Part shown: in pieces, positions 9,880-64,000 of the stretch
Numbering within the stretch: position 1 is the first letter of the stretch
Layout: each line of letters opens with the position of its first letter
From: a virus
Virus record (IMG/VR): IMGVR_UViG_3300050030_000022
Coordinates: 9,182-73,181 of that record
Length of the DNA: 64,000 bases
Direction: 5' to 3' (one strand)
Notes under the pieces: generated by a model
The model's database searches: none
Told to the model about the DNA's origin: nothing
What the model saw: the letters and a program-made list of their open reading frames with translations, nothing else
Made by a program: the position numbers and the translations under genes

Positions 9880-9880
9880 A

Positions 9881-12384: not shown

Positions 12385-12390
12385 AATATT

Positions 12391-12606: not shown

Positions 12607-12607
12607 A

Positions 12608-13153
12608 ATGACCCAACTGCTCCAGGAAATACGCCTTAAACAAGCCATGAAGGAAAAGGGCGTGGACTTACCCTACACCATTGATCACGCTACACCCAAA
12701 ACCGCGGTCGGTGATAAAGAATATCCTTTGGTCTTTCCCCGCTTTTTAATCAACACCGATCAGCCCAAGACGATCAACACGCTCTTTATCGGTTTAATCA
12801 CGGACAAACGCAAACAGTGGCTCACAAGGTTCCCTGATGCTGTAATCATCAATTCCCTTCGCGGCAGAAGTGAGGCGACTAAGGTGTATGACAAGACCTA
12901 TTTTGACAAAATGGCACAATCTAAGTTTGTCCTTTGCCCGGATGGAGATTTTGTCTGGACGTACCGATTCTTTGAGGCCATACTAAGTGGCGCAATCCCG
13001 GTCATTCAGAATCATTGCAGTCTGTACCGGGGATATATGTATGTAGTGGGTAGGAAATATAACAAGAATTTTTACAATATAGTTTATAGAGAAGTAGGAC
13101 AGGAGTGGTCGGAGGCAAATCTTGCCAAGATGGAAAAGGAGATGATGCTATGA
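12608..13153 (+). CDS. Exostosin/GT47-like glycosyltransferase domain
   Basis: SKFVLCPDG...RFFEAILSGAIPV signature. Confidence 0.75.
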   Translation: MTQLLQEIRLKQAMKEKGVDLPYTIDHATPKTAVGDKEYPLVFPRFLINTDQPKTINTLFIGLITDKRKQWLTRFPDAVIINSLRGRSEATKVYDKTYFDKMAQSKFVLCPDGDFVWTYRFFEAILSGAIPVIQNHCSLYRGYMYVVGRKYNKNFYNIVYREVGQEWSEANLAKMEKEMML

Positions 13154-30000: not shown

Positions 30001-31089
30001 CTGACCTGCGATCTTTTCACCCATATTAGTATACACCATTGGCATTGTAGCGGTCTGCACTGCACCTTTGGCTACCAATCCTGGCATTTCACGGCCAACC
30101 TGTGCCAGTTTAGGCATAAATTGTTTGATTTCTCCCAAATTCTTTCCCACTATGCCTAACATAGAGTTCATTCCCTCTTTAGCAATCGTTCCCGCGCCAT
30201 TGGTTGCAGCAAACTGAACCATATAAGGTATCTGCATGGTAATTTGCTGACCGATGTTGTATGGTAGGCTACCCGGTTGACTTAATATCGTTTGATAAAT
30301 GCCGTAACAGGCTAATAATGCCTGTTCTTTATCGTTCAACTGTTCACCTTTGCCCGCCTTCTGAGCCACACCCGCCACATCAAACTGGCGGTTCATTTCG
30401 GTAAGACCCATAGTGAAGAAGTCTTTAGCCAACGGCGACAATAATCCTTTAGTGAATTGCTGAAAGACATTGGGTGTGTTTAATTCGGTACGTTTCTCTG
30501 CAATTTTCAGCCAATCTTTTGCATCGGTCAGGTATTGTTTTTCCCGTAATAAATTATCGTAATCGGGGTTGTGCAGTTCGGGGTCATAATTGGTTTCACT
30601 GACCTTCCCGGCGCTATATCCGCCCGTTAATGGTGGTGCGGGCGGTTGCGATACAACATTCAACTTCTGCGTGACATCATTGATCATGGTGTCGAGGAGT
30701 TGGTTATCATTGGTAAAATCATATTGAATGCCCTGTGGGGTAGGCACTCCCTTATTTAACATGGACAACCCTAAAAATGGGATATTACCGGGTATTCCTC
30801 CCGATTCTGCAATTTCCCGCATTCTTTCTGATGGTTTTTTTCGCTCAGTAGGTAGTGCGGCTGTGGGGATGTAAGACTGAACGCTTTTATAGAACGTATC
30901 AAAGTCCCCTATTTCTGCTTGGCTGAACTTGTATTTGCCCGTCAGGTCGTTGTATAAATACTGTGCCTTTGTGGGGTCGGTAATGTTGGTGCGGAATATG
31001 TCATACGTCCCCAACTGGCTCTGGCCTATCCGGTTCGATCCTAAGATGTTGTTATACAACTGTAATAATAAATCTGGTCTATCAGGCAT
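21064..31089 (-). CDS. Giant polyvalent virion/ejection protein (GNAT, zincin metallopeptidase, JAB/RadC, LPD38-like C-terminus)
   Basis: RQKGQA acetyl-CoA motif (~27230), HEIVAH (~25231-25248), HNHPSG..S.AD (~24361-24378); likely start ATG 31089. Confidence 0.8.
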   Translation of the reverse strand: MPDRPDLLLQLYNNILGSNRIGQSQLGTYDIFRTNITDPTKAQYLYNDLTGKYKFSQAEIGDFDTFYKSVQSYIPTAALPTERKKPSERMREIAESGGIPGNIPFLGLSMLNKGVPTPQGIQYDFTNDNQLLDTMINDVTQKLNVVSQPPAPPLTGGYSAGKVSETNYDPELHNPDYDNLLREKQYLTDAKDWLKIAEKRTELNTPNVFQQFTKGLLSPLAKDFFTMGLTEMNRQFDVAGVAQKAGKGEQLNDKEQALLACYGIYQTILSQPGSLPYNIGQQITMQIPYMVQFAATNGAGTIAKEGMNSMLGIVGKNLGEIKQFMPKLAQVGREMPGLVAKGAVQTATMPMVYTNMGEKIAGQVDPEGNIISQSSLPVGMMKGLANSFPDILTESMGTHIIASIPRIGTLLGKKAAQGVSRWLTPVQKFKGAAMFGSFPEEFSEEMMSNVITPMIDPDTKASDVWTGQNILTTTITLAAVGGGFYASNVAYKSLDEQILRNKYLSDLPKETKSSVIDALKQDKPADVSSSLSDILHKSGVTDQQGLNIITYAWNNAMRRGMGESLLSTLAEQEKQKADEPLKPQAVENLKAQGVPEEKIAEVLNTPESILSPGQQKIKAQFDQELGRVRIDKDEQLAAADQVKAQYAPFTYKDNEHLVQIVDREGNHWWVKDGDVTINPEDGTWKLGKKPLIVVPDGGGEAMMIPFDDVVGVRATSLSELGGVSASNVAQRQQQNKIGEQILQKLDEVQNPPETTLRMGESITYNGRQADIIETGKDFVKAIYEDGTQVTIPESEFGSVEKTTPEQAGEVTAPNVPPVAQNAPENVQPTAQKTVLKANLNGKDVPVPFTALPDGSLQSNPSFAKESEANKVAKALGDKYSQSEFTPVNTADPSDALAENNFVIVSRPKPAEKPTGLPAKGAEFVINGDETNTTFRIDNKGKVQAFLDGAWSDSGASDMILATAKGSGFTLKSKQNEQVKEKASPEAGKESAATQEVQPQEGEVITKPQEEIQHDQENIEGLPGGEPQGEAVEQGRPELRGGTGQVTGSGDVQTHEEKVNEPPIAPDQAEVVPQAEVPETGIPASEQPPDLQPISETNPQPELQQESQHELQPWEMTREKFVGEGYTFDQTDRSLNMELNKWQKIKNEADKEKYNIPAFDKAIAGVNRKIELSKQHRESITQALSEGKPVPENVLADYPDLRVNPEKPTTNLKPQPEKPKGVESGVESKPYDRFAKDLGLTEPVDVIGGDAKTGKIGDATIVVAQHTPEAVTLESIKVPLKQRQKGQANAAMRDITDKADELGITLKLKAVPEVSSDMTAQQLRDWYRKYDFLFVGNTGERLPKEGGMSEKPTPVSVSPQKGGGIEIKQKPPDEFVGNALKPKSKPKEFVGEVLKPKPTTPEDRLTDLGSQISKVKQEIDYLKKQRKNKGIPTEREADLKKDLAKLRDQYRKLDFSIPIKENPDAPPMPTGENLNEWIGWVRLYSTNPQDIHIAWQQEREHNIPYDKLHDWQLATLETRTTIKSFTDHNDKNNITQGLIKRFTDKNGTPLDRIAAEKFEDGIDVTPGEVAQFMVDVVNNSDIIRKTTDDQLDLAYRFKKLTGYSINKYREWNEKNVGQINISDELGAEIANFTDISIIDNPDYLASFKDDAISEGWMTDQDYIDIQDYLNNKGYEETISYSRGTEETLEGVAEHPGEGKRVEGKPEATARQREIARIKADYTRQIKDLKETLVSDSQLRNRQNEAVRAANKKISLFGQAGSLGEKDMFVGEGAFGTNETTIRKNIADQVKAYNKQVNETIAQLEKDMRSEVALAEKQIEMPMDVQEKPPSEPNILQSTQSEDILPDQSVNVENPLFKKYDYIGDMYSELTTGSKEFETTVRQMASDISKETGVKVNIVKSKNNLDDRTRAAIEKAGNKTDGFYDLDSKEVTLILNNITSSDRAATVLLHEIVAHHGLRALFEHNVKGFNKLMDQVYDSMTEEEKRYMAKRYPRPKTGISYKQLLADEYVAQKAQGGVKPTWWGRFIAGLRNLLRQAFGKFVKWTDNDINDLLRRSRENLRETAPETEFVGDILGEKAALRRDGLLAEGEYLRMSAETAGATPENILMEQNEAERAYGSIQAKDEAIRKLVQEVNEQYADKSKTSGDKIKPRTVIDTFAEQGYVDFTGLKINNPQDVAELWSIHRSPYIEKAHVVFLKDGDIVGTAAYTLNKPGSTQFPESPEIRDLAIGFGANQFYLVHNHPSGNHNASAADIFVTGRIVQNLMNGETWGKEPVEMLGHVVIDHEKFTFISPERALDYYNQYKSNISFRGIANEQIDNYSQSNEYKNAKPRLFTEREALGSNNGRNAQTRMVEIGKALLTDKGYHAAIIYLSPNLNINAYDVPPENLDLQGVINYGMERVKDEKLGHNLIILHDGIFGEDMGESVTVPDYVLDIINTKTETSHALNQVKMGGNERQQLWEVQYPYDKPNILMSQETEPDMEGKPRKMKDIYSEVRDTWFGNRDVAKAKANVEAFNTQTEIQKIFTTEKPKWAKTWQDIDRAIQIHIDTQAHPEHIQQYWNDLTPRQQALVTASEELTPSMKAIADRIGAEYTKMGQLALDNMVIANVLENYVNRIWDISGQAGHDAWKKFSLTTRHSKKRVFGTIIEGMAKGYNLKVEGASNSLEILKNEIHNVIENRNLINSGKQVKDEDGNPLFATQQLPGYKMVEHPSFKIWGYDGKLKHKKEANSQYNDEVDYKFDESTGKFKDIEYHNRDIFITENGTVMRRKQVYAPAPVAKNLNDILSTSWFREQPAAKQLIFINALLKRNVLSWSFFHHLAFTRAYLLGSALHQFSDLNIRKSYKAGLDAYFHMTPDVESLIRAGMTIGRMQDWEEDLLRSKTLVDGWLDQLKVTKDVRDKIHKLHEAHTDFLFKRYGAGLKVKFALLELAKQRKLNPKLDDKVILGMIARIANDNFGGLHYERMGISKTWLDFNGLWLLARDWTLSNVRLMVKAIHSGSKAETRMYRRYWLRAISRVAFLSVGLNLMMAVFNDPDDQETYLETLTHQYKDAFDKPGQLNWLSMDVTPVNRLMGGEEVDQQGNEVRKYFNIAGHFKDPYKWTEQAVTGSWTTPIKNKGSIFARTVFDLMEGNNWQGKRYTTLAEVLGYDDKGVYMSTNEKLGYRVGEPKGGKLKGKLTKWPPPNETGGVNSDEMLSFILANGRDWLPIPLQNSVAFAMGETSAFDMVTHGVGFHVNTNRIKGYDIEAEYKKVYDAATLSQRMYHDAMNHNEFDKAEAISKTPEFEKSLMVIDFTHSAKKVPGDIVWDLQNKMKDALDMGDNKTYDELNTQRKAIMQMIVDDYNK

Positions 31090-31100
31090 AATGTTTATTA

Positions 31101-32435
31101 TTAGCGTTGATACCACGGAACATCTGATTCCTCTTTCTGTTCGCCTGAAGTCGTATTAGCGTTCTGTTGATCGGATGTTTTAGGCAGAAAAGATGGGTTA
31201 GTTAAATCGGTCATAACCTCCGGCAATGCCTCCCATGATTGGAACTTCCCGGTTGCGTCATAAATAGGCTTGTAATATTTCTGATACTCCGAAGCGATCA
31301 TTCCATCCACAATCTGCTTTGATTGTTCATAATTTGCACCAACCAAATCTTTCATCCTTTTAGAGATTTCAGCCGTTGGATGGTTCATAATCTTTTGGTA
31401 CACATCAAAATAGAGTTCCTTTGGAATCGTCAACGTGGCATGGGTCTGCTGATCCACTACCGGCACGTTATCCCCGGCTAACTTAAACTGATCGGTCACA
31501 ACCTTATCTGCTGCCCTTGCGTTTTCAGCACCAATCCTCTTACCCAACAAATCCAGGTCGTACCCGTATTTCTTTTTCATCTTTTCCAAGTCGTTCGCCT
31601 GTTTATCCTTCATTGTTTCATCGCCCAATTCATGCTTTGCACCCATTAAGGCAGCATTGTAACCGGCTTTATTCTTCTGCAATTCCTCAGCATTGGTAGC
31701 CCTTTGGTTCATCATCGCCAATGTATCGTTGTACTTTCGCTGATATTGCTCGTCCCCATACGCATACTTAAAGGCATTTTGCATCGTATTGGTCTTCATC
31801 AGGTCGTAACGGTCTTTCCTCTGTTGGTACTCGTCATGTTCCTTTTCGTACTGCGCCAAGAGTTGCTGGGTCGTCACATTGGGTTCGGGATTAATTGGAG
31901 AGCCGTGTTTTGCCCCGTAATGATAATCAACAACCTGCCTTATCATCTGTCCTAAAGCGTTGATGGCAGCTACCGTGGCGAGTTGGTTGCGCTTTTTCTT
32001 ATCCAGTTCCGGTTCGGCGGGCAGGGTGTTCTTAAAGATTTTCATATATTCCTCATAACCTGTGGGTAGGGAGGATTGTGTACTTGGCTGAGCGGCAGGT
32101 GGTGGAGTAGCGTTACTTTTGTTTTGTTTTGCAGCCTCAGTGAAGGTGGTGTAAGGTGGTATTTTCCCTGCTTTGACCGCTAAATCTCCCGGCGATCCCT
32201 TCAGATAGCCGGCGTTTAAATCATAATCATTGGATGTGGCTACTGGTTGCGTGGGGTCTAATGGTGCTGCTGCCGGGTTATTAACCAACTCAGACACATA
32301 ACGGGGGTCGTAGTTCTGCGCCGATGGGTCGCCCGGTCGCTGGTACTGAGCCAATATCTGCCCGACTATATCGGGTTGCTCAAGTTTTTTCTGTGCCATA
32401 TTGAGCCAAAAGTTCGGGTCTATTATTGGTGTCAT
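31101..32435 (-). CDS. Internal virion / ejection protein
   Basis: Helical Q/K/A-rich protein in ejection-protein block. Confidence 0.6.
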   Translation of the reverse strand: MTPIIDPNFWLNMAQKKLEQPDIVGQILAQYQRPGDPSAQNYDPRYVSELVNNPAAAPLDPTQPVATSNDYDLNAGYLKGSPGDLAVKAGKIPPYTTFTEAAKQNKSNATPPPAAQPSTQSSLPTGYEEYMKIFKNTLPAEPELDKKKRNQLATVAAINALGQMIRQVVDYHYGAKHGSPINPEPNVTTQQLLAQYEKEHDEYQQRKDRYDLMKTNTMQNAFKYAYGDEQYQRKYNDTLAMMNQRATNAEELQKNKAGYNAALMGAKHELGDETMKDKQANDLEKMKKKYGYDLDLLGKRIGAENARAADKVVTDQFKLAGDNVPVVDQQTHATLTIPKELYFDVYQKIMNHPTAEISKRMKDLVGANYEQSKQIVDGMIASEYQKYYKPIYDATGKFQSWEALPEVMTDLTNPSFLPKTSDQQNANTTSGEQKEESDVPWYQR

Positions 32436-42860: not shown

Positions 42861-42893
42861 TTGTTTAAACCTGTGCATTTTCACTTATATTTG
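42861..42893 (+). promoter_or_regulatory. Class A promoter TTG-N9-GTGCA-N8-TATATTTG for tail module
   Basis: Intergenic upstream of nozzle gene. Confidence 0.65.
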
Positions 42894-42910: not shown

Positions 42911-45900
42911 ATGACTAACGAGGGTCTTCTTCCGCAAAATCAAAAACTTACCATCATCCCAACGGGGATAAAACGCCATCAGCACGATCTGAATTGTGAA
43001 GATGCGGGATGTGAGGAAGTTGTGAACCTGCGTTTTAAGAACGGCAGTTGGCGCACGGTGGGTGAAAAAACCGCTGTATGGTCATGGGATCACGGGTGTG
43101 CTTTACTTTATTACCATGCTTACATCAATGAAAAGAATGGTACGGATTACTATGTGGGTGTGGCTTATGAGGGGTTGGGCTTACCTAATCTTTATTTAGT
43201 TAAGCCAACAGCCCAAACCAAAACCTCCATCAAGGGCATTTCCACCGATCCAAGTGAAACCGTATTATCCGTTACCAGTCTAAACTCGATCCTAATTGTC
43301 ACCACTGCGGATAAAGAACTGATATTTAATTGGGACAATGACACCTCGGCTTATGTGGAACTCTCAAAAGACATTTGCCCGGACATTTCATTTCAGTACC
43401 AGGTCAGCCCTGATGCTACCGACTGGATTATTATTACCGGCGGAGATTATAAGGAGTTTGACACTCAAGCTGAATTGTTCGACCAAATCCTGATTGAAAA
43501 GTATAAGAAACGCCAAAAGGGTTTATTCTCTCACTGTTGGATCATGATTCAGTGGGCTTTTCGGTTATGGGACGGCTCTTACATACGACATTCCCAACCA
43601 TTTTTACTCAAATTAAGCAACGGAACTCCGGACTATTGGCAGACCTTAGTGGAGGCCGCAAAATACCATACGATACTTGAAACGGGGATTCCAAAGTTTT
43701 ACATCAATATGCCCACGGCGGTACGTGCCAATTTAGAGCATTACAAGGGGCTTATTTCAGACCTGTGTGTATTTATGTCACAGGACGTGTCCCAATACCT
43801 GTGTGAGTACAACGGTTCACCGTACACCACGGATGGAGTTGGACACCGTTACGCTTTCTCAGACAACACCGACTCCCTGCACCAACTTGTTAATCTTTAT
43901 CCGTATTACCTTGCCAAAGAGGTAAAGTATTCCGAATTAATGGAATCGGATAACACCACTAAGTTTGAGATTAATCTGAATGAAGTTATTAATAAACTGA
44001 ATTTCTCAGGGGATGGCGGTGAAAATATCGACACGGTAGAAAAAATACCCGTCAGGCACAATACTTATTCATTTAAGAGATTGGGCGGTGGTAATTGGCT
44101 GAATCTGCTATATGGTGGTTTTGGTGCTTTAACTAAAAATGGAAATTGGAATAAAGTATGGTACACCCAAGACGATGCTGAACAAACCGTTGAGGCTACC
44201 GATGAGGCCGGGTCGTTCATTTTGCAATCACAACCCGAACTACCCGTTGACGACTTTTCCAATCACACCCTTATAGGTAACGCCACCCCGTATATTTACA
44301 ATGCCAAATTACATAAGGGCAATATCAACGTCAGGTTTGGTAACGCACCCCAATTCTCCGAATGGAATGCCTTTACAGGTTATACTTTGATGCCTGCCGG
44401 AGATATGCCAGGTATATGGACTTTTTACCGGGAGGTCAAGATAGTGACCGATTTGGGCGACCGCTATGTTAGGGAAGTCTTTACTCCCTATCTCCAGGTA
44501 AATATATCGAGCGATATGTTGCGCATACCCCCGATTGTGTCCTATCCTGACGCAAGGGCTACGCGAATAAGAATTATCATCAAGAAAACCGGGGATGCTA
44601 ATTATTACGAAATGGCATCCTTTGAACTTAAATCCCACAAGATTTACAATTACGCTTACTGCATAACCAACGAAACCACGACTGGCGCAGACCCGGAATA
44701 CCTGCTTTTTGATTTTACAAATATCGTTTTTACCAATAATTTCCCCGCCTCTTTCCCGAATGTCTGCGGGGTAAACGGTATAGACGCAATGGCAACCGAT
44801 GATCGTTACTACTTGGATAAAAACCGGGTGCAGGTGTCAAGGATTAACAACGCTCTATATTACCCCTCGATGTATTCCTACCAGTTTGGAAACTCTGAAA
44901 CCGTTATTTTGGCTTTCGGGAGCCAGTCTGCCCCCATATCCCCAGGACAGTTCGGGCAGTTCCCGCTAAGTGTTTTCACTTCTCAAGGTATATTTTTAAT
45001 GCAGCAGGGCGGCGGGGATGTTATCTACTCAGCTATTGTTCCCTTAAACAACGAAGTTGCGTTTAAAAACTCCATCTGTGAATTAGGCGGGGCAATAGTA
45101 TACGCCAGCCGGGATGGATTAAAGATACTTTCAGGCAACCGGCTGCAACACATCTCCCGTGAAGTGGAGGGCGTACCTTCGGATAAATTAATCAATGATA
45201 GTTACTATATTAACTTCATAACCAACGCGGACGGTCATTTGGTCAATCTGTACCAATACCTGAGCGAAGAAGATTTTCTAACCTATCTGGATGAGAACGT
45301 CAGGGTGTGTTATGACAAAATGAATAAAGAACTCATTATCTCTAACCGGGATTTATTTACCGATCAGGGGAGGAATAGTTCTTCGGGGTATTCTTACGTT
45401 TACAATTTACCTTACAAGACCTGGCACAAGATCACCGACACCTGGCATCAGTTTATCTTAGTAAATAGCCGTTGGGTGGGGTTAAAGAATTACCGGGCGG
45501 GGTACACCACGGGATTGGGCGCACAATATATGGACGGCGAAACCTCTGTTTTACAAGACTGCATGATTCAATCCAGACCTATGAAGTGGGGCAGTTATGA
45601 GTTTAAAAAAATGCGCACGATTGTTCAGCGATCCCTTTGTTGTGTTGGTGATATACTGGATTCCCCACAAGATGCCGATGATAAATTTGGGATGTATATG
45701 TTCGCCAGTTTGGAAAATAACATCTGGAAATTTGTCAAAGGCATTAAAGTATCTCAGACTTTTGGCATGATACAGCACCCCACTTTGGGAAGTAATGAAG
45801 CCTCCGTGCGCCAGATCGTTTTACTGACGGCTGTAAAGAGCAAGGATATGGTGTTTTCCCATTGGGAAATCCTGCGGGGGCTTACCAACCCTGATAAGTT

Positions 45901-46006
45901 GGGAACCGAAGCTCGCCATGATACCGAAAACCTTTTAGGGGAATACGATGCCCAGCAGTACGGCGAAAGTTATGATATTGGAATTTCAACAGAAAATCTA
46001 CCATGA
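42911..46006 (+). CDS. Tail nozzle / stabilisation protein (P22 gp10 or tail tubular B-like)
   Basis: SYPDARA, ISPGQFGQFPL.VF...GI, SRPMKW motifs recalled from Bacteroidota podovirus tail proteins. Confidence 0.7.
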   Translation: MTNEGLLPQNQKLTIIPTGIKRHQHDLNCEDAGCEEVVNLRFKNGSWRTVGEKTAVWSWDHGCALLYYHAYINEKNGTDYYVGVAYEGLGLPNLYLVKPTAQTKTSIKGISTDPSETVLSVTSLNSILIVTTADKELIFNWDNDTSAYVELSKDICPDISFQYQVSPDATDWIIITGGDYKEFDTQAELFDQILIEKYKKRQKGLFSHCWIMIQWAFRLWDGSYIRHSQPFLLKLSNGTPDYWQTLVEAAKYHTILETGIPKFYINMPTAVRANLEHYKGLISDLCVFMSQDVSQYLCEYNGSPYTTDGVGHRYAFSDNTDSLHQLVNLYPYYLAKEVKYSELMESDNTTKFEINLNEVINKLNFSGDGGENIDTVEKIPVRHNTYSFKRLGGGNWLNLLYGGFGALTKNGNWNKVWYTQDDAEQTVEATDEAGSFILQSQPELPVDDFSNHTLIGNATPYIYNAKLHKGNINVRFGNAPQFSEWNAFTGYTLMPAGDMPGIWTFYREVKIVTDLGDRYVREVFTPYLQVNISSDMLRIPPIVSYPDARATRIRIIIKKTGDANYYEMASFELKSHKIYNYAYCITNETTTGADPEYLLFDFTNIVFTNNFPASFPNVCGVNGIDAMATDDRYYLDKNRVQVSRINNALYYPSMYSYQFGNSETVILAFGSQSAPISPGQFGQFPLSVFTSQGIFLMQQGGGDVIYSAIVPLNNEVAFKNSICELGGAIVYASRDGLKILSGNRLQHISREVEGVPSDKLINDSYYINFITNADGHLVNLYQYLSEEDFLTYLDENVRVCYDKMNKELIISNRDLFTDQGRNSSSGYSYVYNLPYKTWHKITDTWHQFILVNSRWVGLKNYRAGYTTGLGAQYMDGETSVLQDCMIQSRPMKWGSYEFKKMRTIVQRSLCCVGDILDSPQDADDKFGMYMFASLENNIWKFVKGIKVSQTFGMIQHPTLGSNEASVRQIVLLTAVKSKDMVFSHWEILRGLTNPDKLGTEARHDTENLLGEYDAQQYGESYDIGISTENLP

Positions 46007-48579
46007 AAAAACTATTATTGTTTTGTTTTATAGCATTAATTAGTTGTTCGGTTTTTGCTCAGGTCAAGTCAGATGCGGACATGAACACCTATAACAATAC
46101 TTATATCAAACCCAACAATACAGGCGCGATAAAGGCGACTATGCACAACACCCTGAATAAGTATATCATCAACTCCAAAATCAACCGGGACTCGATTGGT
46201 AATGTGCAGGTATTGGGTGATACGGCTTTGGTGGTCATTTATAAGAATAACCCGCCTGATACGGTACAAATAGTTAATGCCTCCACAAGCGGATGGGCGA
46301 CTTCTGGAGATTACGTTTATTTAATCAATGTCGGCGATAGTGTAGGGATTGGAACAGCCTCTCCGGGTTATAAATTATTTGTCAACGGTGGTTTTGGCGG
46401 GTCAACTTATATGGTTTTACAACCTACTGCAAAATCAGGGGCACGTGACGGGCAGATTTATAATGATGTAGATAATCATTTATATTATTATAATGGATTG
46501 GCGTGGAAACAACTGGACAACGCTTCAGGGGAGGTGGACATCTCAGGTGATACGTTATTTGTCAACGGCGATACGATAATCGTAAGCCCAAACTACTGGG
46601 CTAAGGACATAGCCGGCAATATTACCAATAACAATACCGGAGATGTACGGATAGCTAACGACATCCAATTTGTCGCCGGTCAAACGCACGCTATCGGGAT
46701 TACAAATAACACACCTTATCCCGGCAATCACCTGTTAATCCAGTCTGGTATAGGGACGATAACAGGAACTTCCATTGCGGGAAACATCTACATAACGCCT
46801 CCTTTAGCGGACACGCCCGGCAATGTTATTCTAAACGTGGACACAGCCGGAAACAAAAATGGATTCACCGGGATTGGCGTGGCAGTGCCGCAGCAAATGT
46901 TAGACGTTGGCGGACAGATCAAGGTTCATTCGTTGGACACCTTAATCGGGAAGCATCTTATTTTGGTATTTGACGAAACGGATAGCACTCTGGCAGTGAT
47001 TCCATTTGATTCTGTGGGGGGTGGGGGTGCTTCCCTGTGGTATCTCTCCGGTGATACCGCTAATACTGTTTATAACGTGAAGTTGGATTCTAATTTATTC
47101 CTGAATAAAAACCTTAATCTTGTCACAACAACCGCAACAGACGGGCAGATAAAGCAAAATGGAACGACAGTATTTCATACTTATCACGAAAAGGGGGACA
47201 ATAACTTATTTATCGGACAGGGTGCGGGAAATTTTACAGCTGATTCAAGTGGTAATATAGGAATAGGTGCAAGTGTATTAGATGCTTTAACTATAGGATA
47301 TAGAAATGTTGCAGTTGGTTATAAGGCACTTGATAAATGTTATAAAGGTTTTGAAAATGTAGCAATAGGGTTTGAATCATTGTATAATGATACAAGTGGT
47401 ACTAAAAACACAGCAATAGGTGCATATGCACTTGCTGGAAATTTAAAAGGAAGTACTAATACGGCTATTGGAAGTGCAGCATTATATTTAAATTCTATTG
47501 GTATTAGTAATACCGCATTAGGTTTTGCGACTTTGTATAATAATGCAGGAGGTTATAATTCTGTAGCACTTGGATATATGGCTATGTATAATGCATATAA
47601 TGGAACAAGCCTTCGTGGTACTTATAATACCGCTATTGGCTATGAAGCCATGAAAGGTAGTGCAATCCCTGCAAACAATACTGGTCAATATAATACAGCT
47701 ATTGGCTATCAGGCATTAGATGCAATGACATCAGGCGAAAAAAATACCGCCATTGGTGTAGATGCATTGGGCGCAAATACAACCGGCTCCAATAATATCG
47801 GCATAGGTTACAACGCAGGCAATACAGCAGCTTATGCAACCCTTTCTAATCGCATCTACATTGGAACCGGTGACACTGCGACCGCACCGATTTATGTGAA
47901 TGCGGGTATCGGTAAGACAACCATCAACGGCGACCTTCATGTCACCGGCAACCTGACAGTAGACGGCACCTCTCCCGGCGGTGCTGAAAGTGATCCCGTC
48001 TGGATAGCAGATAGTTCGGCTTTTCTTAGAACGATTGACACCAATACTTATGTCGCTTCGCACAAATGGGTAACGGATAAAGGGTATTTAACCGCTTTAC
48101 CGGCTTCCGCTTTGGAATGGTCGGACACCACAGCAAGTGCAGGGGTAGGGGTAGGCACCTTTGACGACATAAGAGATACGGCAGCCGCTATCCGGGCAGA
48201 CTTCCCCGCTCCCGGTGGGGGTGTACCGCCTGTAATCATTTCCTGGGACGGTCAGGGTGGTGTTGTTGGAACCGGAAATACAGTTTACCGGACAATGGCT
48301 TATGCCGGGACGATAACGGGCTGGTCAATCACAGCAACGGGGACTTCGCCGACTTGTACGATTGACATTTGGCGGGTGGCAACGGGTGGAACGACTTTGC
48401 CGGCGGTCGGTAATACAATCATGGGGACAAAGCCGGCTCTATCTACCGGGAATATCATACGAAGCACCACTTTAACGGCGTGGAACCCTGTGGCTTTTTC
48501 AGCCGGGGACACTTTCGGGTTTAATATAGGCGCCTGTGCGGCTGCTTTAAAAATAACATTTTCTTTAACGATACAATAA
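46003..48579 (+). CDS. Tail fibre with Sec signal peptide, YadA-like NTAIG repeats and C-terminal jelly-roll-like domain
   Basis: MKKLLLFCFIALISCSVFA-Q; VGIGT.SP; repeated N(T/V)A(I/L/V)G; follows nozzle gene with ATGA overlap. Confidence 0.75.
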   Translation: MKKLLLFCFIALISCSVFAQVKSDADMNTYNNTYIKPNNTGAIKATMHNTLNKYIINSKINRDSIGNVQVLGDTALVVIYKNNPPDTVQIVNASTSGWATSGDYVYLINVGDSVGIGTASPGYKLFVNGGFGGSTYMVLQPTAKSGARDGQIYNDVDNHLYYYNGLAWKQLDNASGEVDISGDTLFVNGDTIIVSPNYWAKDIAGNITNNNTGDVRIANDIQFVAGQTHAIGITNNTPYPGNHLLIQSGIGTITGTSIAGNIYITPPLADTPGNVILNVDTAGNKNGFTGIGVAVPQQMLDVGGQIKVHSLDTLIGKHLILVFDETDSTLAVIPFDSVGGGGASLWYLSGDTANTVYNVKLDSNLFLNKNLNLVTTTATDGQIKQNGTTVFHTYHEKGDNNLFIGQGAGNFTADSSGNIGIGASVLDALTIGYRNVAVGYKALDKCYKGFENVAIGFESLYNDTSGTKNTAIGAYALAGNLKGSTNTAIGSAALYLNSIGISNTALGFATLYNNAGGYNSVALGYMAMYNAYNGTSLRGTYNTAIGYEAMKGSAIPANNTGQYNTAIGYQALDAMTSGEKNTAIGVDALGANTTGSNNIGIGYNAGNTAAYATLSNRIYIGTGDTATAPIYVNAGIGKTTINGDLHVTGNLTVDGTSPGGAESDPVWIADSSAFLRTIDTNTYVASHKWVTDKGYLTALPASALEWSDTTASAGVGVGTFDDIRDTAAAIRADFPAPGGGVPPVIISWDGQGGVVGTGNTVYRTMAYAGTITGWSITATGTSPTCTIDIWRVATGGTTLPAVGNTIMGTKPALSTGNIIRSTTLTAWNPVAFSAGDTFGFNIGACAAALKITFSLTIQ

Positions 48580-48580
48580 C

Positions 48581-49786
48581 ATGAAAAAATACTTATTGAT
48601 ATTAATGATATTGCCCCTGCTTAGTTTTGGCGGCAAACGCTATTGGGTCGGCGGGGGGGCCTCGGCCAACTGGAGTGCAACCGGTAATACTAATTGGTCA
48701 TTGACTTCCGGCGGGGCAGGTAATGCAGCCGTCCCGGGTACGAGTGATTCAGTTTATTTTGACGGGGCGGGAAGTGGAAATTCCGCTTCGACCATCTCGG
48801 CAACGATAACGGTAATGAGATTTGAGATTACATCAGGTTACACGAATACGATAACTCACAATGCCGTTCTGACCTGCTCAGGTGATTTCACCCTTAACAC
48901 CTCTTACACTATTGCGGGGAGTTCACCTGTCACGCTTTCGGGTACTTGTACCATTACATCTGGCGGCAAAACATGGCCTAATGCAATGACATTTTCTGGA
49001 GCGAACACAAAAACACTTTCTGGTAATTTAGTAATTTCAGGAGATTTAACTCTTTCAACTGCGAATAGTATTATTAATTGGACGACAAATGAAACCTTAT
49101 CATGTGCGGGACTAATGATCAGTGGAAGTCAAGCAGCTGGCACGGCTAAAATTATAGTAACTGGCGGAATACTTTATATGAACTCTTCAGGTTATATGGC
49201 TGGAAATAATATAGATATTCAGGGAAATGTAACGATTGGAGTAAATTTTGGGTTCGGAAATTCGAAAACATTAACTTATGTAAGCGGAACAGTCACAACT
49301 ACTTCATCAACATTTTATATATTAGGGAGTTGTACTTTAAATACTGCCGGAATTGCGTGGAATAATATTTATGTTAACTCAGATGCGACTATTACTAATA
49401 ATTCTTTATTAACGGTTACCGGAACATATACAATGGCATCATGGAATGTTTCATGGCAAGGAAACTATGGGTTTACCGTTGGAACTTTAGTCATGTCGTC
49501 AACTTCAAATTCAAGTGCCCTTACCCTAAATGATGGGGTGACTTATACCGTAACAACTGTCTTGCAGGCATATCTTTCCAGAAAGGGTTCTATTGTGACA
49601 ATCACATCAGACGATGCAACGAATAAAGCAATATTAACCCTTAATCAGGGAGCGACCTGTAACGTTTTGGCGAACCTTACAAGGATAGACGCCTCGGCGG
49701 GCAGAACGATTTTCACATTTAACGGAACAATAACAAACTGCCTGAATGTGGTCGAAATGCACGACCGGGCAACGGTAGGAAACTAA
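48581..49786 (+). CDS. Signal-peptide-bearing beta-solenoid protein (putative fibre/receptor-binding)
   Basis: MKKYLLILMILPLLSFG; RYWVGG...NWS..SGG...VP...D.VYFD; T/S/N/G-rich. Confidence 0.65.
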   Translation: MKKYLLILMILPLLSFGGKRYWVGGGASANWSATGNTNWSLTSGGAGNAAVPGTSDSVYFDGAGSGNSASTISATITVMRFEITSGYTNTITHNAVLTCSGDFTLNTSYTIAGSSPVTLSGTCTITSGGKTWPNAMTFSGANTKTLSGNLVISGDLTLSTANSIINWTTNETLSCAGLMISGSQAAGTAKIIVTGGILYMNSSGYMAGNNIDIQGNVTIGVNFGFGNSKTLTYVSGTVTTTSSTFYILGSCTLNTAGIAWNNIYVNSDATITNNSLLTVTGTYTMASWNVSWQGNYGFTVGTLVMSSTSNSSALTLNDGVTYTVTTVLQAYLSRKGSIVTITSDDATNKAILTLNQGATCNVLANLTRIDASAGRTIFTFNGTITNCLNVVEMHDRATVGN

Positions 49787-49869: not shown

Positions 49870-50754
49870 ATGAAAACAATTAAAACACTTTTCTTAATTT
49901 CTTTACTGACTTTTGCTTTGGCAAGTCAGGGGCAGACAACGCAATTATACTATAAGGGTTGCGGCAAAGTGCAATCAAAAACGTTTGATCTGACTTATGG
50001 AACCAACGGTCAAGATAAACCCGTGGGCAACCATTTTAAATTCTGTCTTTTAAAAGACGGGAACTATTTGTATGGTCAGGATGCACTTACTGAGGCTGAA
50101 AAACCTGTTTGGGGTGATAATCAAAATCGAACAATCGAAGAGTTGTTACCTCATTTGACGCCCGATGTCGGCGTGAAATTCTTATACAGTAATAACTGGC
50201 ATCCAATAGCCGTGGATAGCCTGCCAACTACACTGGGTACTACCTATCAACTAAGAGTTTGGAGTGGGAATTATTCTGGTGGTCAAAAAACATATTACAA
50301 ATCCAGTGAAATGCCCTTTGAGTCGGTACAGTATTGGCTCAGCATTGGTTTTTTTACGGAATGGAAACAATATAATTTGCCTGACCGAACTGCTTCAATA
50401 AACCCTGACTGGATCAATAACGAAGCGATCCGTACCGTTGAACGTGCGGAATACAAACAGATTGTACAGGAATACTTTGCCCTCATGGGCGACTACTCGT
50501 TTCCGACTTTTCCAACTAACCCTTCTGCGTTAGGTGGCTGTGACAGTTGGGTATGGAAAATCCAGTATAGCGGAGAATCCTGGCAAACCTTAACAGTTGA
50601 TCCGACCTTTTGGCTTGCATCACCAAATGGATTCCCTATAATTCTTTACAGGGAAATTCCGATAAGTTGCAAATACTATAATTTGCAATGGGATAGCAAG
50701 ATAAATAATACGATATCGGGCGAAGATCGAGTGAAAAGACTTTTAGGAATGTAG
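49870..50754 (+). CDS. Secreted hypothetical protein
   Basis: MKTIKTLFLISLLTFALASQG-Q signal peptide. Confidence 0.65.
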   Translation: MKTIKTLFLISLLTFALASQGQTTQLYYKGCGKVQSKTFDLTYGTNGQDKPVGNHFKFCLLKDGNYLYGQDALTEAEKPVWGDNQNRTIEELLPHLTPDVGVKFLYSNNWHPIAVDSLPTTLGTTYQLRVWSGNYSGGQKTYYKSSEMPFESVQYWLSIGFFTEWKQYNLPDRTASINPDWINNEAIRTVERAEYKQIVQEYFALMGDYSFPTFPTNPSALGGCDSWVWKIQYSGESWQTLTVDPTFWLASPNGFPIILYREIPISCKYYNLQWDSKINNTISGEDRVKRLLGM

Positions 50755-50777: not shown

Positions 50778-50803
50778 AAACCCCGTATTTAACGGGGTTT
50801 TTT
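50778..50803 (+). terminator. Rho-independent terminator ending tail module
   Basis: AAACCCCGT-ATTTA-ACGGGGTTT followed by TTT. Confidence 0.85.
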
Positions 50804-61901: not shown

Positions 61902-64000
61902 ATGAAAAATTATACATATAGTTTATCGCTAATATTTAGGTTCAGTCTAATATTTATATTGTCTTCTTTTTCTTTAATCAGCTTTGGACAATTAACTAGA
62001 ACTCAGATAATAAACAATGCCACACCCTATACAAGCTTTTCATGGACTGCAAGTTCTTGTAACTTATGGAGTGGCGTATACTGTGGGGGAAGAATTGTTT
62101 ATTCAGCAGATATTCCTTGGGTAAATGTAGGCACTAATATATCTATGCCTTATTGTTGGGGCGGCTGGTCTACAATATCTGAACATAACACTGCTATGAC
62201 AAATTGCAAATCCGCTGGGGACATTTGCTCACCAAGTGGTGGTGGATGTTCAGGCTCTGGTGCTGGTTTAGGATGTGCAAGTGGTCACGATTGTTCTGGT
62301 TTAGTATCAAGAGCATGGGCTTTAACTTCAAAGTATTCTACTACAATGCTAAATGATATTTCTACTCCAATTGAATTAACATCGACCCAGCAAGGAGATA
62401 TTTTAAATGATGCTGGCTCTCATGTTAGATTAGTAGAAACTAATTATGGAAATGGTAATTATCGTGTTATTGAAGCATCCGGCACAGATTGGAAAGTTGC
62501 ATATCATACTTATACAACTGCTCAGCTAAGCGGTTATGATCCAAGATGTTGGGATGATGTTATTGGAGGTTGTGGTGGTGGATCAGCGCCCATTAATGAT
62601 GACTGCTCTGATGCAATTCTTCTTACATCAAGCTCAAGTTGCAATTATATATCAGGTGATATTGAAGGCGCAACTCAGTCCATACCAGCTATACCCTGTG
62701 ACGGTTATACCAGCACCCTAGTGCAAGATGTATGGTATAAATTTGTCGCCGTATCAACATCTCATACAATCACCGTTGATCCATCTTCCGGTCTGGATGC
62801 TGTCGTAGATCTTAGATCTGGCCCGTGTAACGGCACTACTATTGATTGCTCCGATAACGGAGGTGGTCAAGGAGGTATTGAAATCATTTATGCTACAGGA
62901 TTAACAATAAATCAGACTTATTATGTGAGGATTTATGATTATACTTCGAATTCTACCCCTCCTAGTTCGACTACCTTCGATATTTGCATAACCGCAGAAT
63001 CCACTCCAATTTGTGTTGATTGCCCGGAATATGATTTCACTCTTACATCTTCTACTTCATGGCAAACACATTCATCCTCGCATGGTGAAGACGGATGTAA
63101 AATGTATAGGGTCAATGTCACTTCCGGCAGAACTTATACATTTAAAACAGGATGTGGGGATGGTGCAACCGCCGATTATGATACTTACCTGGAACTTTAC
63201 AATTCAAGCTGTAGCTTAATCGCCTCTGATGACGATGATTGCGAAGAAACCAGATCATTAATTGAATGGACTGCAAATTATTCCGGCTATGCCTATTTAA
63301 AAGTCAGAGGTCTTAGTAATGATTATGGTAATTATACTTTAGCCTACATGTACTGTACGCCTCCATCTGCACCATCTACTATTGATGCCGTGGCTTCCTC
63401 CAGCTCTCAGATCGATATAACCTGGGAAAATGTAAGCAATGAAGATGGATATTATGTTTTCAGATCTACAACCTCTGGTGGAACTTATTCTCAAATTGCC
63501 TCAACAGGGGCTAATGTCAATTCTTATTCAAATACAGGATTACCGGCTAATACTCAGTATTGCTATAAAGTTAAAGCCTATAATTCAGCCGGATCATCTG
63601 GTTTTTCTCCCTATGATTGTGCTACCACCTTGAATACTCCGCCAGCCGCTCCTTCTACACTTGATGCCGTGGCTGTATCGAGCTCACAGATAGATATAAC
63701 CTGGGAAAATGTCAGTAATGAAGATGGATATTATGTTTTCAGATCTACAACCTCTGGTGGAACTTATTCTCAAATTGCCTCAACAGGGGCTAATGTCAAT
63801 TCTTATTCTAATACAGGGTTGCCGGCTAATACTCAGTATTGCTATAAAGTTAAAGCCTATAATTCAGCCGGATCATCTGGTTTTTCTCCCTATGATTGTG
63901 CTACCACCTTGAATACTCCGCCAGCCGCTCCTTCTACCCTTGATGCTGTGGCTTCTTCCAGTTCTCAGATCAATATAACCTGGGAAAATGTCAGCAATGA
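61902..64000 (+). CDS. Host-like secreted NlpC/P60 + PPC + FN3-repeat protein (runs off window; absent from ORF track)
   Basis: Manual translation: signal peptide FG-Q, PYCWGG, HDCSGLVSRAW, GDIL..AGSHV, NDDC..A, DVWYKF, tandem FN3. Confidence 0.8.
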   Translation, partial: MKNYTYSLSLIFRFSLIFILSSFSLISFGQLTRTQIINNATPYTSFSWTASSCNLWSGVYCGGRIVYSADIPWVNVGTNISMPYCWGGWSTISEHNTAMTNCKSAGDICSPSGGGCSGSGAGLGCASGHDCSGLVSRAWALTSKYSTTMLNDISTPIELTSTQQGDILNDAGSHVRLVETNYGNGNYRVIEASGTDWKVAYHTYTTAQLSGYDPRCWDDVIGGCGGGSAPINDDCSDAILLTSSSSCNYISGDIEGATQSIPAIPCDGYTSTLVQDVWYKFVAVSTSHTITVDPSSGLDAVVDLRSGPCNGTTIDCSDNGGGQGGIEIIYATGLTINQTYYVRIYDYTSNSTPPSSTTFDICITAESTPICVDCPEYDFTLTSSTSWQTHSSSHGEDGCKMYRVNVTSGRTYTFKTGCGDGATADYDTYLELYNSSCSLIASDDDDCEETRSLIEWTANYSGYAYLKVRGLSNDYGNYTLAYMYCTPPSAPSTIDAVASSSSQIDITWENVSNEDGYYVFRSTTSGGTYSQIASTGANVNSYSNTGLPANTQYCYKVKAYNSAGSSGFSPYDCATTLNTPPAAPSTLDAVAVSSSQIDITWENVSNEDGYYVFRSTTSGGTYSQIASTGANVNSYSNTGLPANTQYCYKVKAYNSAGSSGFSPYDCATTLNTPPAAPSTLDAVASSSSQINITWENVSN
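63384..64000 (+). repeat. 279-bp near-identical tandem repeats encoding 93-aa FN3 domains (at least 2.2 copies)
   Basis: GATGC(C/T)GTGGCT at 63384, 63663 and 63942 with near-identical downstream sequence. Confidence 0.9.

What the first reader, a model, noticed from the sequence alone, without database searches (positions are those of the whole stretch)
46003..48579. Tail fibre with Sec signal peptide and dense O-glycosylation sequons: possible periplasmic glycosylation of virion fibres
Seen: the fibre-like gene, coupled to the tail nozzle gene, starts with a classical signal peptide (MKK-hydrophobic-VFA|Q). By hand count it has 14 D-[ST]-[AILVMT] motifs (DSI, DTA x5, DTV, DSV x2, DTL x2, DTI, DST, DTT), and about 21 of about 49 Asp are followed by S/T. 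Established: D-[ST]-[AILVMT] is the sequon of the Bacteroidota general protein O-glycosylation system, which acts on extracytoplasmic proteins, and tailed phage virions normally assemble in the cytoplasm. Inference: the phage routes its fibre through Sec so that it is O-glycosylated in the periplasm, then docks it on virions at or after lysis. No T9SS C-terminal domain is evident, so it would be retained in the periplasm. I know of no described system like this.
Basis: partly seen in the sequence, partly recalled or inferred. Interest (0 to 1): 0.9.

Follow-up and report, generated by a model that had tools for sequence, protein, structure and literature searches.

The report
Phage tail fibre with export signal
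A phage of Bacteroidota-type bacteria encodes its tail fibre, next to the tail nozzle gene, with a bacterial export signal and many sugar-attachment motifs, which suggests that the fibre matures outside the cytoplasm, where virus particles are not normally built.

Summary
The upstream, ATGA-coupled 1031-aa gene folds like podovirus tail nozzle proteins. Nozzle, fibre and two further signal-bearing genes form one unit, from a promoter-like site to a terminator-like hairpin. The signal belongs to a conserved N-terminal module: 18 of 18 relatives carry it, and Gln at +1 (the Bacteroidetes Q-rule) and two sequons are invariant in the 13 aligned. The distal parts vary, as in tail fibres. The C-terminal domain and the downstream 401-aa partner have signal-less homologues in 16 other viral contigs. 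A second contig (L095) has fibre and partners all signal-bearing, and its fibre has 31 sequons against 6.5 expected. Signal-less homologues are not sequon-enriched. Export and O-glycosylation are therefore well supported in silico. Incorporation into virions at lysis is inferred only from gene context and modularity. I found no printed precedent. Best reading (0.45): a Sec-exported, glycosylated virion fibre. Main rival (0.33): an exported fibre-like protein that never joins the particle.

The parts
42886..42893 (+). Bacteroides-type -7 promoter-like motif TAnnTTTG (TATATTTG), 18 nt before the nozzle start. It is preceded by TGTGCA, as at two other sites in the window.
   Evidence: This is a motif match only. 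The consensus is recalled from knowledge of Bacteroides promoters.
42911..46006 (+). Tail nozzle/hub protein, 1031 aa, no signal peptide.
   Evidence: AF2 model pLDDT 71, pTM 0.70. Foldseek hits: phicrAss001 tail muzzle 7qol_P E 1e-13, SU10, P22 gp10, Sf6 gp8, T7 gp12. Homologue of BS-TP4 gp26 'putative structural protein'. 2 sequons vs 3.2 expected.
46003..46059 (+). Signal peptide of the fibre (aa 1-19), predicted SPase I cut VFA|Q. An alternative lipobox-like LISC lies at aa 12-15.
   Evidence: M1, K2 and Q20 are invariant in 13 aligned relatives. Residue -1 is small in 12 of 13. Cys15 is present in only 2 of 13.
46060..46407 (+). Conserved N-terminal module (aa 20-135) with two invariant sequons (D63-S64, D86-T87). 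Candidate virion- or envelope-anchoring domain.
   Evidence: 18 relatives of 120-1407 aa share it, all with a signal peptide, and have different distal parts. No match in deposited phages.
47113..47922 (+). Central NTAIG-type fibre repeats (aa about 371-640), with 1 sequon.
   Evidence: PHROG tail spike / virion structural protein families, E 1e-27 to 2e-21. tblastn hits to annotated tail fibres of many phages. Homologues.
48235..48576 (+). C-terminal domain (aa 745-858, motif PTCTIDIW), 0 sequons. Shared with signal-less phage fibres.
   Evidence: 48-68% identity to the C-termini of fibres in 5 of 5 IMG/VR loci. Alignment A1.
48581..49786 (+). 401-aa 'RYWVGGG' beta-rich partner protein, with a signal-like 19-aa N-terminal extension.
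   Evidence: 47% identity over aa 20-399 to the signal-less 392-aa protein of L007, which starts MAARYW. 41 of 120 family members are signal-like by my rule. 1 sequon vs 1.4.
49870..50754 (+). 294-aa protein of no known family with signal peptide and Q at +1 (LAS|QGQ).
   Evidence: no family hit.
50778..50800 (+). Terminator-like hairpin (9 pairs, 5 GC) plus T run. It closes the four-gene unit.
   Evidence: Consensus scan only: 11 such sites found in the region against 10.5 in shuffles.

Best explanation
ORF 46003-48579 is the tail fibre (receptor-binding protein) of a podovirus of a Bacteroidota host, made as a Sec preprotein. Proposed steps: (1) Nozzle, fibre, the 401-aa partner and the 294-aa protein are transcribed as one unit. 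(2) The nozzle stays in the cytoplasm and joins the portal. The fibre and its two partners are exported by Sec, cut by signal peptidase I before Gln20 (which the host glutaminyl cyclase would turn into pyroglutamate), and fold in the periplasm. (3) The host general O-glycosylation system loads glycans on D-[ST]-x sites there. These sites are concentrated in the N-terminal 370 residues (11 of 14). (4) When the holin opens the inner membrane, fibreless particles meet the periplasmic fibres and bind them through the conserved N-terminal module, before or as the outer membrane fails. Shown here: the sequence features, the nozzle fold, the synteny, the conservation, and the contrast with signal-less homologues. 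Inferred: export, cleavage, glycosylation, docking and the host phylum.
For: Signal: n-h-c layout, VFA|Q. The N-terminal module occurs in 18 of 18 relatives with a signal. Q20 is invariant and -1 is small in 12 of 13. Q at +1 after SPase I cleavage is described as specific to Bacteroidetes (PMC5837995 and PMC10653852, abstracts seen in the listing). By my reading of the N-termini, six signal-bearing ORFs of this genome have Q at the likely +1. Sequons: 14 vs 3.8. The L009 orthologue has 9 vs 3.5, and the L095 signal-bearing fibre has 31 vs 6.5 (z 10.4, 0 of 2000). Family members have z 1.5-5.9. Among 120 central-domain proteins (P0001 and its 119 homologues), the 75 signal-like ones have 368 observed vs 262 expected, and the 45 others have 183 vs 229 (Mann-Whitney P = 0.005). 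Signal-less fibres with the same C-terminal domain have 20 vs 24.6. Genome-wide, signal/TM-like ORFs have 43 vs 24.3 and the rest 28 vs 42.8. The published motif is D-S/T-A/L/V/I/M/T, used only on noncytoplasmic proteins and nearly fully occupied, and engineered motifs are glycosylated (PMC12871550, passages). Virion role: the neighbour is a nozzle by fold. There is an ATGA overlap. The same nozzle-to-signal-fibre order is seen in L009. The N-terminus is conserved and the distal part varies. The C-terminal domain plus 'RYW' partner is a module of fibre loci in 16 other viral contigs. The signal state of fibre and partner agrees in all 18 contigs (16 without, 2 with). No signal-less paralogue exists in the genome (blastp E <= 1e-4). 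Host: the nearest cultured relatives are Bacteroides phages (portal 36% identity).
Against: No tailed phage is known to take a virion protein through Sec, and virions assemble in the cytoplasm. Nothing here shows the protein in a particle. The operon sits among replication genes (helicase upstream, SSB and exonuclease downstream), not in the head/lysis block. The phage encodes about ten other signal or lipoprotein-type proteins that look like cell-surface adhesins (FN3, FISUMP domains), so a general envelope-remodelling programme could include this gene. The central repeats are commonest in signal-bearing chromosomal Bacteroidota proteins. The related contig G001 has a conventional signal-less fibre just upstream of its signal-bearing one, so the exported set may be an extra and not the virion's own. 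Half of the sequons lie in G-D-[ST] turns, and the signal-bearing 401-aa family is sequon-poor (28 vs 62). So export does not always go with enrichment, and some of the enrichment may be structural. The signal peptide call used a rule of my own, not SignalP. The AF2 model of aa 1-370 was too poor to test for a fibre-anchor fold.
Confidence: 0.45

Rival explanations
1. The protein is exported and probably glycosylated but never joins the virion. It is a phage-encoded periplasmic or envelope fibre built from receptor-binding modules. It might mask or bind the phage receptor (superinfection exclusion, or protecting progeny from adsorbing to debris, as the T5 Llp lipoprotein does), or it might act as an adhesin in a lysogen. 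If the LISC lipobox is used, it would be a membrane-anchored lipoprotein.
For: The Sec signal places it in a different compartment from assembling virions. The phage carries many other signal or lipoprotein adhesin-like genes. P. gingivalis phages are reported to encode Q-rule signal proteins, proposed to modify the host envelope (PMC10367356, passages). G001 has a signal-less fibre beside its signal-bearing one. Relatives of the phage are temperate (PMC12694917, passages). A lipobox-like LISC is present.
Against: Known receptor-masking proteins are small (recalled), not 858-aa mosaics of fibre modules. The gene is ATGA-coupled to the nozzle, and the order is kept in L009. A conserved N-terminal module with swapped distal parts is the usual pattern of virion-anchored fibres. 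No signal-less copy exists that could serve as the virion's fibre. Cys15 is present in only 2 of 13 relatives, so lipidation is not a family trait.
Confidence: 0.33
2. The hydrophobic N-terminus is not an export signal in vivo. It could be a buried helix, a membrane tether on the cytoplasmic side, or a segment removed by a phage protease. On this reading the fibre assembles in the cytoplasm as usual, and the D-[ST]-hydrophobic excess is a structural feature of this fibre fold (G-D-T turns before beta strands).
For: GD[ST] is 7 vs 1.1 expected, and N[ST][AILVMT] is also enriched for purely structural reasons. The capsid protein of this phage also begins with a long hydrophobic stretch, and similar capsid 'signals' in P. 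gingivalis phages were attributed to prohead protease processing (PMC10367356). The signal-bearing 401-aa family shows no sequon excess.
Against: Only the hydrophobic character is conserved across 18 relatives, not the sequence, while K2, the small -1 residue and Q20 are kept. That is the pattern of a cleaved SPase I signal under the Q-rule, not of a packing helix. In the 401-aa family the extension is placed directly before the first conserved motif, and signal-less members start MAARYW. Signal-less homologues are not sequon-enriched.
Confidence: 0.12
3. The gene is a recently captured host surface-protein gene (a moron) with no role in the phage cycle. Its position after the nozzle is accidental.
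For: The central domain is shared with many signal-bearing proteins on long, probably chromosomal contigs (up to 724,832 bases).
Against: The N-terminal module and its position after the nozzle are kept in a relative whose nozzle is 52% identical. The C-terminal domain and the partner gene are phage fibre modules. The gene lies inside an operon bounded by a promoter-like site and a terminator-like site.
Confidence: 0.05

Closest known systems
Podovirus tail fibres and tailspikes docked beside the nozzle (T7 gp17 with gp11/gp12; P22 gp9 with gp4/gp10; phicrAss001 tail)
   Same: The gene lies directly after a nozzle-fold gene. There is a conserved N-terminal module with exchangeable distal parts. 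Repeat-rich shaft (PHROG tail spike/fibre families). The C-terminal domain is shared among fibres of unrelated phages.
   Different: Those fibres have no signal peptide and assemble in the cytoplasm (established knowledge, recalled). This one has a conserved Q-rule signal, and its partner proteins have signals too.
Q-rule signal-peptide proteins of Porphyromonas gingivalis phages (PMC10367356)
   Same: Bacteroidota phages encoding SPase I substrates with Gln at +1, read as adaptation to the host secretion pathway (passages).
   Different: Those are five genes of unknown function, proposed to modify the host outer membrane. No link to tail fibres, nozzle operons or O-glycosylation is made in the passages I read.
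Bacteroidota general protein O-glycosylation substrates (PMC12871550)
   Same: The D-S/T-A/L/V/I/M/T motif on a predicted noncytoplasmic protein. Motif excess over chance is a phylum trait of noncytoplasmic proteins (passages).
   Different: All described substrates in the passages read are cellular proteins, and the word 'phage' does not occur in the review's main text. Occupancy here is untested.
Glycosylated mycobacteriophage virions (Freeman et al. 2023, recalled; only citing papers seen in the listing)
   Same: Virion proteins of a tailed phage carrying glycans.
   Different: There, phage-encoded cytoplasmic glycosyltransferases act on capsid and tail tube proteins (recalled). Here the route would be Sec export and the host's periplasmic system.
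Exported phage proteins: SAR endolysins, spanins, T5 Llp and Cor lipoproteins (recalled)
   Same: Phage proteins that use Sec or lipoprotein signals. Llp and Cor genes sit beside receptor-binding genes and act at the envelope.
   Different: They are small lysis or exclusion proteins, not virion parts and not built of fibre modules.
Signal-bearing 'tail fiber domain-containing' proteins of Bacteroidota genomes (precomputed PF13884, PF26696)
   Same: N-terminal Q-rule signal plus the same NTAIG-type repeats. Some are as sequon-rich (z > 5).
   Different: Most carry PF13884, which I recall as the endosialidase-chaperone domain. This is missing here. They have a different N-terminal module, and many lie on very long contigs.

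Membership tests
Sec/SPase I substrate obeying the Bacteroidetes Q-rule | Positively charged n-region, hydrophobic h-region, small residues at -3/-1 | tested here: met
   MKK + LLLFCFIALISCSVF + V(-3) A(-1). Residue -1 is A/G/S/T in 12 of 13 aligned relatives (read from the alignment). Tested with a rule of my own, not SignalP.
Sec/SPase I substrate obeying the Bacteroidetes Q-rule | Gln at +1 of the mature protein | tested here: met
   Q20 is invariant in 13 of 13 and visible in 18 of 18 N-termini. The rule is as stated in the PMC5837995 abstract.
Sec/SPase I substrate obeying the Bacteroidetes Q-rule | Actual translocation, cleavage and pyroglutamate formation | not testable with these tools
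   Needs fractionation and N-terminal analysis.
Bacteroidota general O-glycosylation substrate | D-S/T-A/I/L/V/M/T motif in a soluble noncytoplasmic region | tested here: met
   14 motifs, all downstream of the signal. Two are invariant in the family. The noncytoplasmic location is inferred from the signal.
Bacteroidota general O-glycosylation substrate | A host that has the system, and glycan found on the site | not testable with these tools
   Host unknown. Bacteroidota is inferred from relatives, the Q-rule and promoter-like motifs.
Podovirus tail fibre / receptor-binding protein | Encoded with tail genes and matching tail fibre/spike families | tested here: met
   Nozzle fold of the neighbour. 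phrog_4636 tail spike E 1e-27. tblastn hits to annotated tail fibres.
Podovirus tail fibre / receptor-binding protein | Conserved N-terminal anchor with variable distal receptor-binding part | tested here: met
   the same module heads proteins of 120-1407 aa with unrelated distal parts.
Podovirus tail fibre / receptor-binding protein | Physical presence on the virion, bound to adaptor or nozzle | not testable with these tools
   No proteomics or structure exists for this lineage.
Podovirus tail fibre / receptor-binding protein | Cytoplasmic synthesis (no export signal), as in all described cases | tested here: not met
   A conserved signal peptide is present. This is the anomaly.
T9SS cargo | C-terminal sorting domain | tested here: not met
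   No Pfam or NCBIfam hit at E <= 0.01. The C-terminal domain is shared with signal-less phage fibres.
Trimeric autotransporter adhesin | C-terminal membrane anchor / translocator domain | tested here: not met
   No Pfam family at all at E <= 0.01. Only the head-like repeats resemble this family (JGI names of homologues).
Bacterial lipoprotein (SPase II) | Lipobox with invariant Cys at +1 | tested here: inconclusive
   LISC at aa 12-15 fits a lipobox (pattern recalled), but Cys15 occurs in only 2 of 13 relatives.

The most novel reading that the evidence does not exclude
A lineage of tailed phages of Bacteroidota builds its particle in two compartments. Head and nozzle are made in the cytoplasm. 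The receptor-binding fibre set (fibre plus partner proteins) is exported by Sec, capped with pyroglutamate and coated with the host's O-glycan in the periplasm. It is added to the particle only when the holin merges the two compartments. The switch from cytoplasmic to exported fibre modules happened more than once (window lineage and L095/G001). The phage's own glycan genes (GT47-like transferase, pyruvyl transferase at 12557-13836) might tailor the glycan that ends up on the virion.
Probability: 0.35. Interest if true: 0.92.

Novelty: new variant of a known kind. Interest (0 to 1): 0.8.

Why it matters
If the fibre is exported and then mounted on the particle, this would be the first tailed-phage assembly step placed outside the cytoplasm. 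It would also be the first case of a phage borrowing a host periplasmic glycosylation pathway for a virion part. Glycan-coated fibres could change protease resistance, mucus binding, immune recognition and host range of gut or environmental Bacteroidota phages. It would also overturn the working rule, used in DGR and prophage studies (PMC6199706), that a signal peptide marks a bacterial protein and not a phage receptor-binding protein. If the protein is exported but not virion-bound, it is still a new kind of phage-encoded envelope factor built from fibre modules. Both readings can be tested directly with a cultured relative.

Tried and rejected
1. Near-identical DNA in deposited phages: none. 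The N-terminal module and the C-terminal domain have no tblastn match there either.

2. PDB sequence searches with fibre and nozzle: nothing useful.

3. AF2 of fibre residues 1-370 with 25 rows gave pLDDT 55 and pTM 0.24. This is too poor, so I ran no fold search on it. A full-length alignment (A4) was too ragged and was not folded.

4. Complex prediction of nozzle 10-880 with fibre 21-110 gave no verdict (score 0.00). It is neither support nor evidence against binding.

5. Alternative start: Met27 would give a signal-less isoform, but that position is Met in only 6 of 13 relatives. I dropped the idea.

6. Distant nozzle relatives (80 metagenome loci): of the 74 loci with a complete nozzle ORF, 72 have no same-strand ORF of 150 aa or more within 300 nt downstream, and the 2 that have one are not signal-like. 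Only 6 of 188 distinct ORFs of 250 aa or more in those loci are signal-like. The arrangement is therefore confined to the close lineage.

7. Host assignment through genome contigs gave only a 3,966-base contig in a Marinamargulisbacteria bin and a Rikenellaceae contig at 29% identity. This does not settle the host.

8. Sequon excess in the 401-aa family: none. Both signal-bearing and signal-less members are depleted.

9. The ESM Atlas gave only leads for the nozzle (Phage_stabilise, crAss_MUZ at 0.92). These were later borne out by the fold search.

10. Literature: searches found no report of a signal-bearing or host-glycosylated tail fibre. Supplements were closed, including the P. gingivalis phage gene table, which may list signal-bearing tail genes.


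Full report
WHAT THE WINDOW IS. The window is bases 9182-73181 of a single 73,181-bp contig, 43% G+C. It encodes a portal (phrog_156, E 4e-64), a large terminase and a capsid-like protein. It also encodes an endolysin flanked by small membrane proteins, a 3350-aa protein beside the portal, and replication genes: a DnaB-like helicase, NinG, SSB and an exonuclease. The only deposited relatives are three temperate Bacteroides phages, BS-TP4, BF1-TP2 and BKO1-TP3. Their portals are 36-37% identical, and they are described in PMC12694917 (passages). There is no near-identical DNA in deposited phages.

THE OBSERVATION. ORF 46003-48579 gives 858 aa starting MKKLLLFCFIALISCSVFAQVKSD. This is the strongest enrichment among the 91 ORFs of the genome.

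The controls give these results:
- E[ST]x is 1 vs 0.7, and the reversed motif is 2 vs 3.8.
- The cytoplasmic nozzle has 2 vs 3.2.
- N[ST][AILVMT] is 14 vs 6.1. This comes from the NTAIG repeats and shows that structure alone can enrich such triplets.
- GD[ST] is 7 vs 1.1.
- Sequons without a preceding Gly are still 8 vs 3.3.

By region, 11 of the 14 sequons lie in residues 20-370, one in the central repeats and none in the C-terminal domain.

THE NEIGHBOUR IS A NOZZLE. The 1031-aa ORF 42911-46006 has no Pfam family. It overlaps the fibre start by ATGA. With 20 homologues, AlphaFold2 gave pLDDT 71 and pTM 0.70. Foldseek against the PDB returned podovirus tail proteins at the top. These are the phicrAss001 tail and muzzle (7qol_P, 7qok_A, E about 1e-13), then Pa223, SU10, cyanophage A4, P22 gp10, Sf6 gp8 and T7 gp12.

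A TAnnTTTG motif lies 18 nt upstream of the nozzle start. A terminator-like hairpin follows the fourth gene at 50778-50800. The likely unit is therefore nozzle (no signal), fibre, a 401-aa protein and a 294-aa protein, the last three with signal-like N-termini. Both boundary sites are consensus matches only.

THE SIGNAL IS PART OF A CONSERVED MODULE. A full HMMER scan with residues 1-365 found proteins that match from residue 1. All 18 that I examined begin with K/R, a hydrophobic run and a Gln. In an alignment of 13 of them, M1, K2, Q20, D24, K59, D63-S64 and D86-T87 are invariant. The hydrophobic core varies in sequence, and the residue before Q is small in 12 of 13.

Gln at +1 of SPase I substrates is reported as a Bacteroidetes-specific rule. 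It is tied to pyroglutamate formation and to the stability of extracytoplasmic proteins (PMC5837995 and PMC10653852, abstracts in the listing). The two invariant D-[ST] pairs are sequon positions. The proteins carrying the module are 120-1407 aa long with unrelated distal parts, and all have more sequons than expected (z 1.5-5.9).

One of these proteins (P0246, 811 aa) lies on a 65.8-kb viral contig, L009. There it follows, after a 10-nt gap, a 1007-aa nozzle that is 52% identical to the window's. It is itself followed by SSB and the exonuclease. The order nozzle then signal-bearing fibre is therefore kept, while the distal fibre part is exchanged.

THE DISTAL PARTS COME FROM ORDINARY, SIGNAL-LESS FIBRE MODULES. 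The last 110-150 residues are 48-68% identical to the C-termini of fibre-like proteins in five viral contigs (alignment A1). Those proteins (152-1356 aa) start without any signal. Each is followed by a beta-rich protein starting MAARYWVGGG or similar.

The window's 401-aa ORF is 47% identical to one of these over residues 20-399 (E 6e-86). It has 19 extra N-terminal residues, MKKYLLILMILPLLSFGGK, in place of MAA. In the large protein collection, 41 of the 120 listed family members (the query among them) are signal-like by my rule, and the extension is placed directly before the RYW motif. The others start MAARYW or with a HINT-like domain (precomputed PF07591), with or without a signal.

Among 58 distinct homologous ORFs in 80 IMG/VR loci, 3 are signal-like, and two of those lie in tandem in L095. 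In L095 (record G001, 51,955 bases, 98% complete by CheckV) they follow a 1378-aa fibre. That fibre has a Q-rule signal (GIA|Q) and a C-terminus weakly similar to the window's (34% identity, E 7e-4 pairwise). It has 31 sequons against 6.5 expected (z 10.4, 0 of 2000).

The signal state of the fibre carrying the C-terminal domain and that of its partner agree in every contig I could examine. In 16 contigs both lack a signal, and in 2 both carry one. One of those two rests on the weak C-terminal match.

SEQUONS FOLLOW THE SIGNAL. Among 120 proteins sharing the central repeats, the 75 signal-like ones have 368 sequons against 262 expected. The 45 others have 183 against 229 (P = 0.005). Signal-less fibres with the same C-terminal domain have 20 against 24.6. 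Within the genome, ORFs with signal- or membrane-like N-termini have 43 against 24.3, and the rest have 28 against 42.8. Without the fibre the first group has 29 against 20.4 (Poisson P = 0.04). The 3350-aa protein has 2 against 8.9.

The exception is the 401-aa family, which is sequon-poor whether or not it carries a signal.

The review PMC12871550 (passages) makes four relevant points:
- The motif is D-S/T-A/L/V/I/M/T.
- Only noncytoplasmic proteins are modified.
- Motif sites are generally almost fully occupied.
- An engineered motif is enough for glycosylation.

A protein of this sequence that reaches the periplasm of such a host should therefore be glycosylated. This is inference.

WHAT IS NOT SHOWN. 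Nothing demonstrates that the fibre is in the particle. The case for it is as follows:
- coupling to the nozzle;
- kept synteny in L009;
- the fibre-like pattern of a conserved N-terminus with variable distal parts;
- distal modules that serve in signal-less fibre loci elsewhere;
- no signal-less paralogue in the genome.

The case against it is as follows:
- There is no precedent.
- The operon lies among replication genes.
- About ten other signal or lipoprotein-type genes in this phage look like surface adhesins. They carry FN3 and FISUMP/Fib_succ_major domains, and three are paralogues of one another.
- G001 has a conventional fibre (570 aa, MANIKISQLPF...) directly upstream of its exported one.

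The N-terminal module could not be modelled well, and the complex job gave no verdict.

MECHANISM PROPOSED. The nozzle stays in the cytoplasm. The fibre and its partners cross by Sec, are cut before Gln20, fold and are O-glycosylated in the periplasm. They meet fibreless particles when the holin breaches the inner membrane, before the outer membrane gives way. The phage has holin-like membrane proteins and an endolysin. Late, spontaneous attachment of fibres to finished particles is ordinary phage biology (recalled, for example T4 long fibres). I put this reading at 0.45. An exported but non-virion role is at 0.33. A non-functional signal with structural sequons is at 0.12. A passenger gene is at 0.05.

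COMPARISON AND NOVELTY. Phage receptor-binding proteins are expected to lack signals, and this has been used as a criterion of phage origin (PMC6199706, passage). Q-rule signal proteins of unknown function have been noted in P. gingivalis phages (PMC10367356). Virion glycosylation is known from mycobacteriophages through cytoplasmic phage enzymes. That is recalled: the primary paper is not in the library, and I saw only citing papers in the listing. Five searches found no signal-bearing or host-glycosylated tail fibre. I file this as a new variant of a known kind: a podovirus tail fibre module switched to the export pathway. The bolder two-compartment assembly reading remains open.

Noticed in passing
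window 8257, 33387(-), 39314, 48581, 49870, 59240, 60882, 61902; L003 (genome 1-9300) 1275, 4320, 6411(-), 7060(-): An unusually large set of ORFs in this phage start with signal- or lipoprotein-like N-termini. By my reading, six have Gln at the likely +1. Three (305 aa, 536 aa, and the protein cut by the contig end) are paralogues ending in a FISUMP/Fib_succ_major domain. One is a NAGPA-like phosphodiester glycosidase.
   Followed up: partly
L003 7060-8403 (-), genome coordinates, just outside the window: A 447-aa protein with a Q-rule signal lies directly after the holin/endolysin genes and has 10 sequons vs 3.3-3.5 expected. By eye it shares the stretches E[ST]DP[IV]W and DTA.AIRADFPA with residues 662-735 of the fibre. 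blastp at E <= 1e-4 did not report this. It is possibly a second exported fibre-like protein.
   Followed up: partly
window 1999-3360 (-): The capsid-like protein (phrog_26635; weak major head hit) begins with about 40 hydrophobic, Ala-rich residues that look like a signal or membrane segment. Capsid 'signals' were also noted in P. gingivalis phages (PMC10367356).
   Followed up: no
window 8469-13836 (+): A cluster of glycan-related genes. It has a weak PP-loop ATPase hit, a radical SAM/SPASM protein, an Exostosin GT47-like glycosyltransferase (39.7 bits, cut-off 33.4) and a polysaccharide pyruvyl transferase (40.5 bits, cut-off 25.3). They could alter host surface glycans or the O-glycan itself.
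   Followed up: partly
window 61902-64000 and L003 1-1227: The contig ends inside near-identical FN3 tandem repeats. The 3'-open ORF (signal, Cys-rich part, FN3 repeats) probably continues into the 5'-open ORF at the contig start (FISUMP domain), but in another frame. The ends are therefore probably an assembly break in a repeat, not true genome ends.
   Followed up: partly
window 34237, 42886 (+) and 19010 (-): Three promoter-like sites share TGTGCA(A/T)(A/T)(A/T)T-N4-TAnATTTG, 18-23 nt before start codons (first gene of the rightward block, the nozzle operon, and a leftward gene after the portal). This may be a phage-specific promoter class.
   Followed up: no
proteins P0121-P0240: The 'RYWVGGG' beta-rich family occurs with three kinds of N-terminus: MAARYW, a signal peptide followed by RYW, and a HINT-like domain (precomputed PF07591) with or without a Q-rule signal. 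It has no Pfam family of its own.
   Followed up: partly
L002 11611-12159 (-), Bacteroides phage BS-TP4 gp22: A 182-aa protein with a membrane/signal-like N-terminus, beside the endolysin of a cultured Bacteroides phage, has 7 sequons. This hints that periplasmic proteins of Bacteroides phages in general are sequon-rich.
   Followed up: no
window 21064-31116 (-): The 3350-aa protein beside the portal has only 2 sequons against 8.9 expected (z -2.4). In the relative BS-TP4 the equivalent giant protein is reported as a DGR target (PMC12694917).
   Followed up: no
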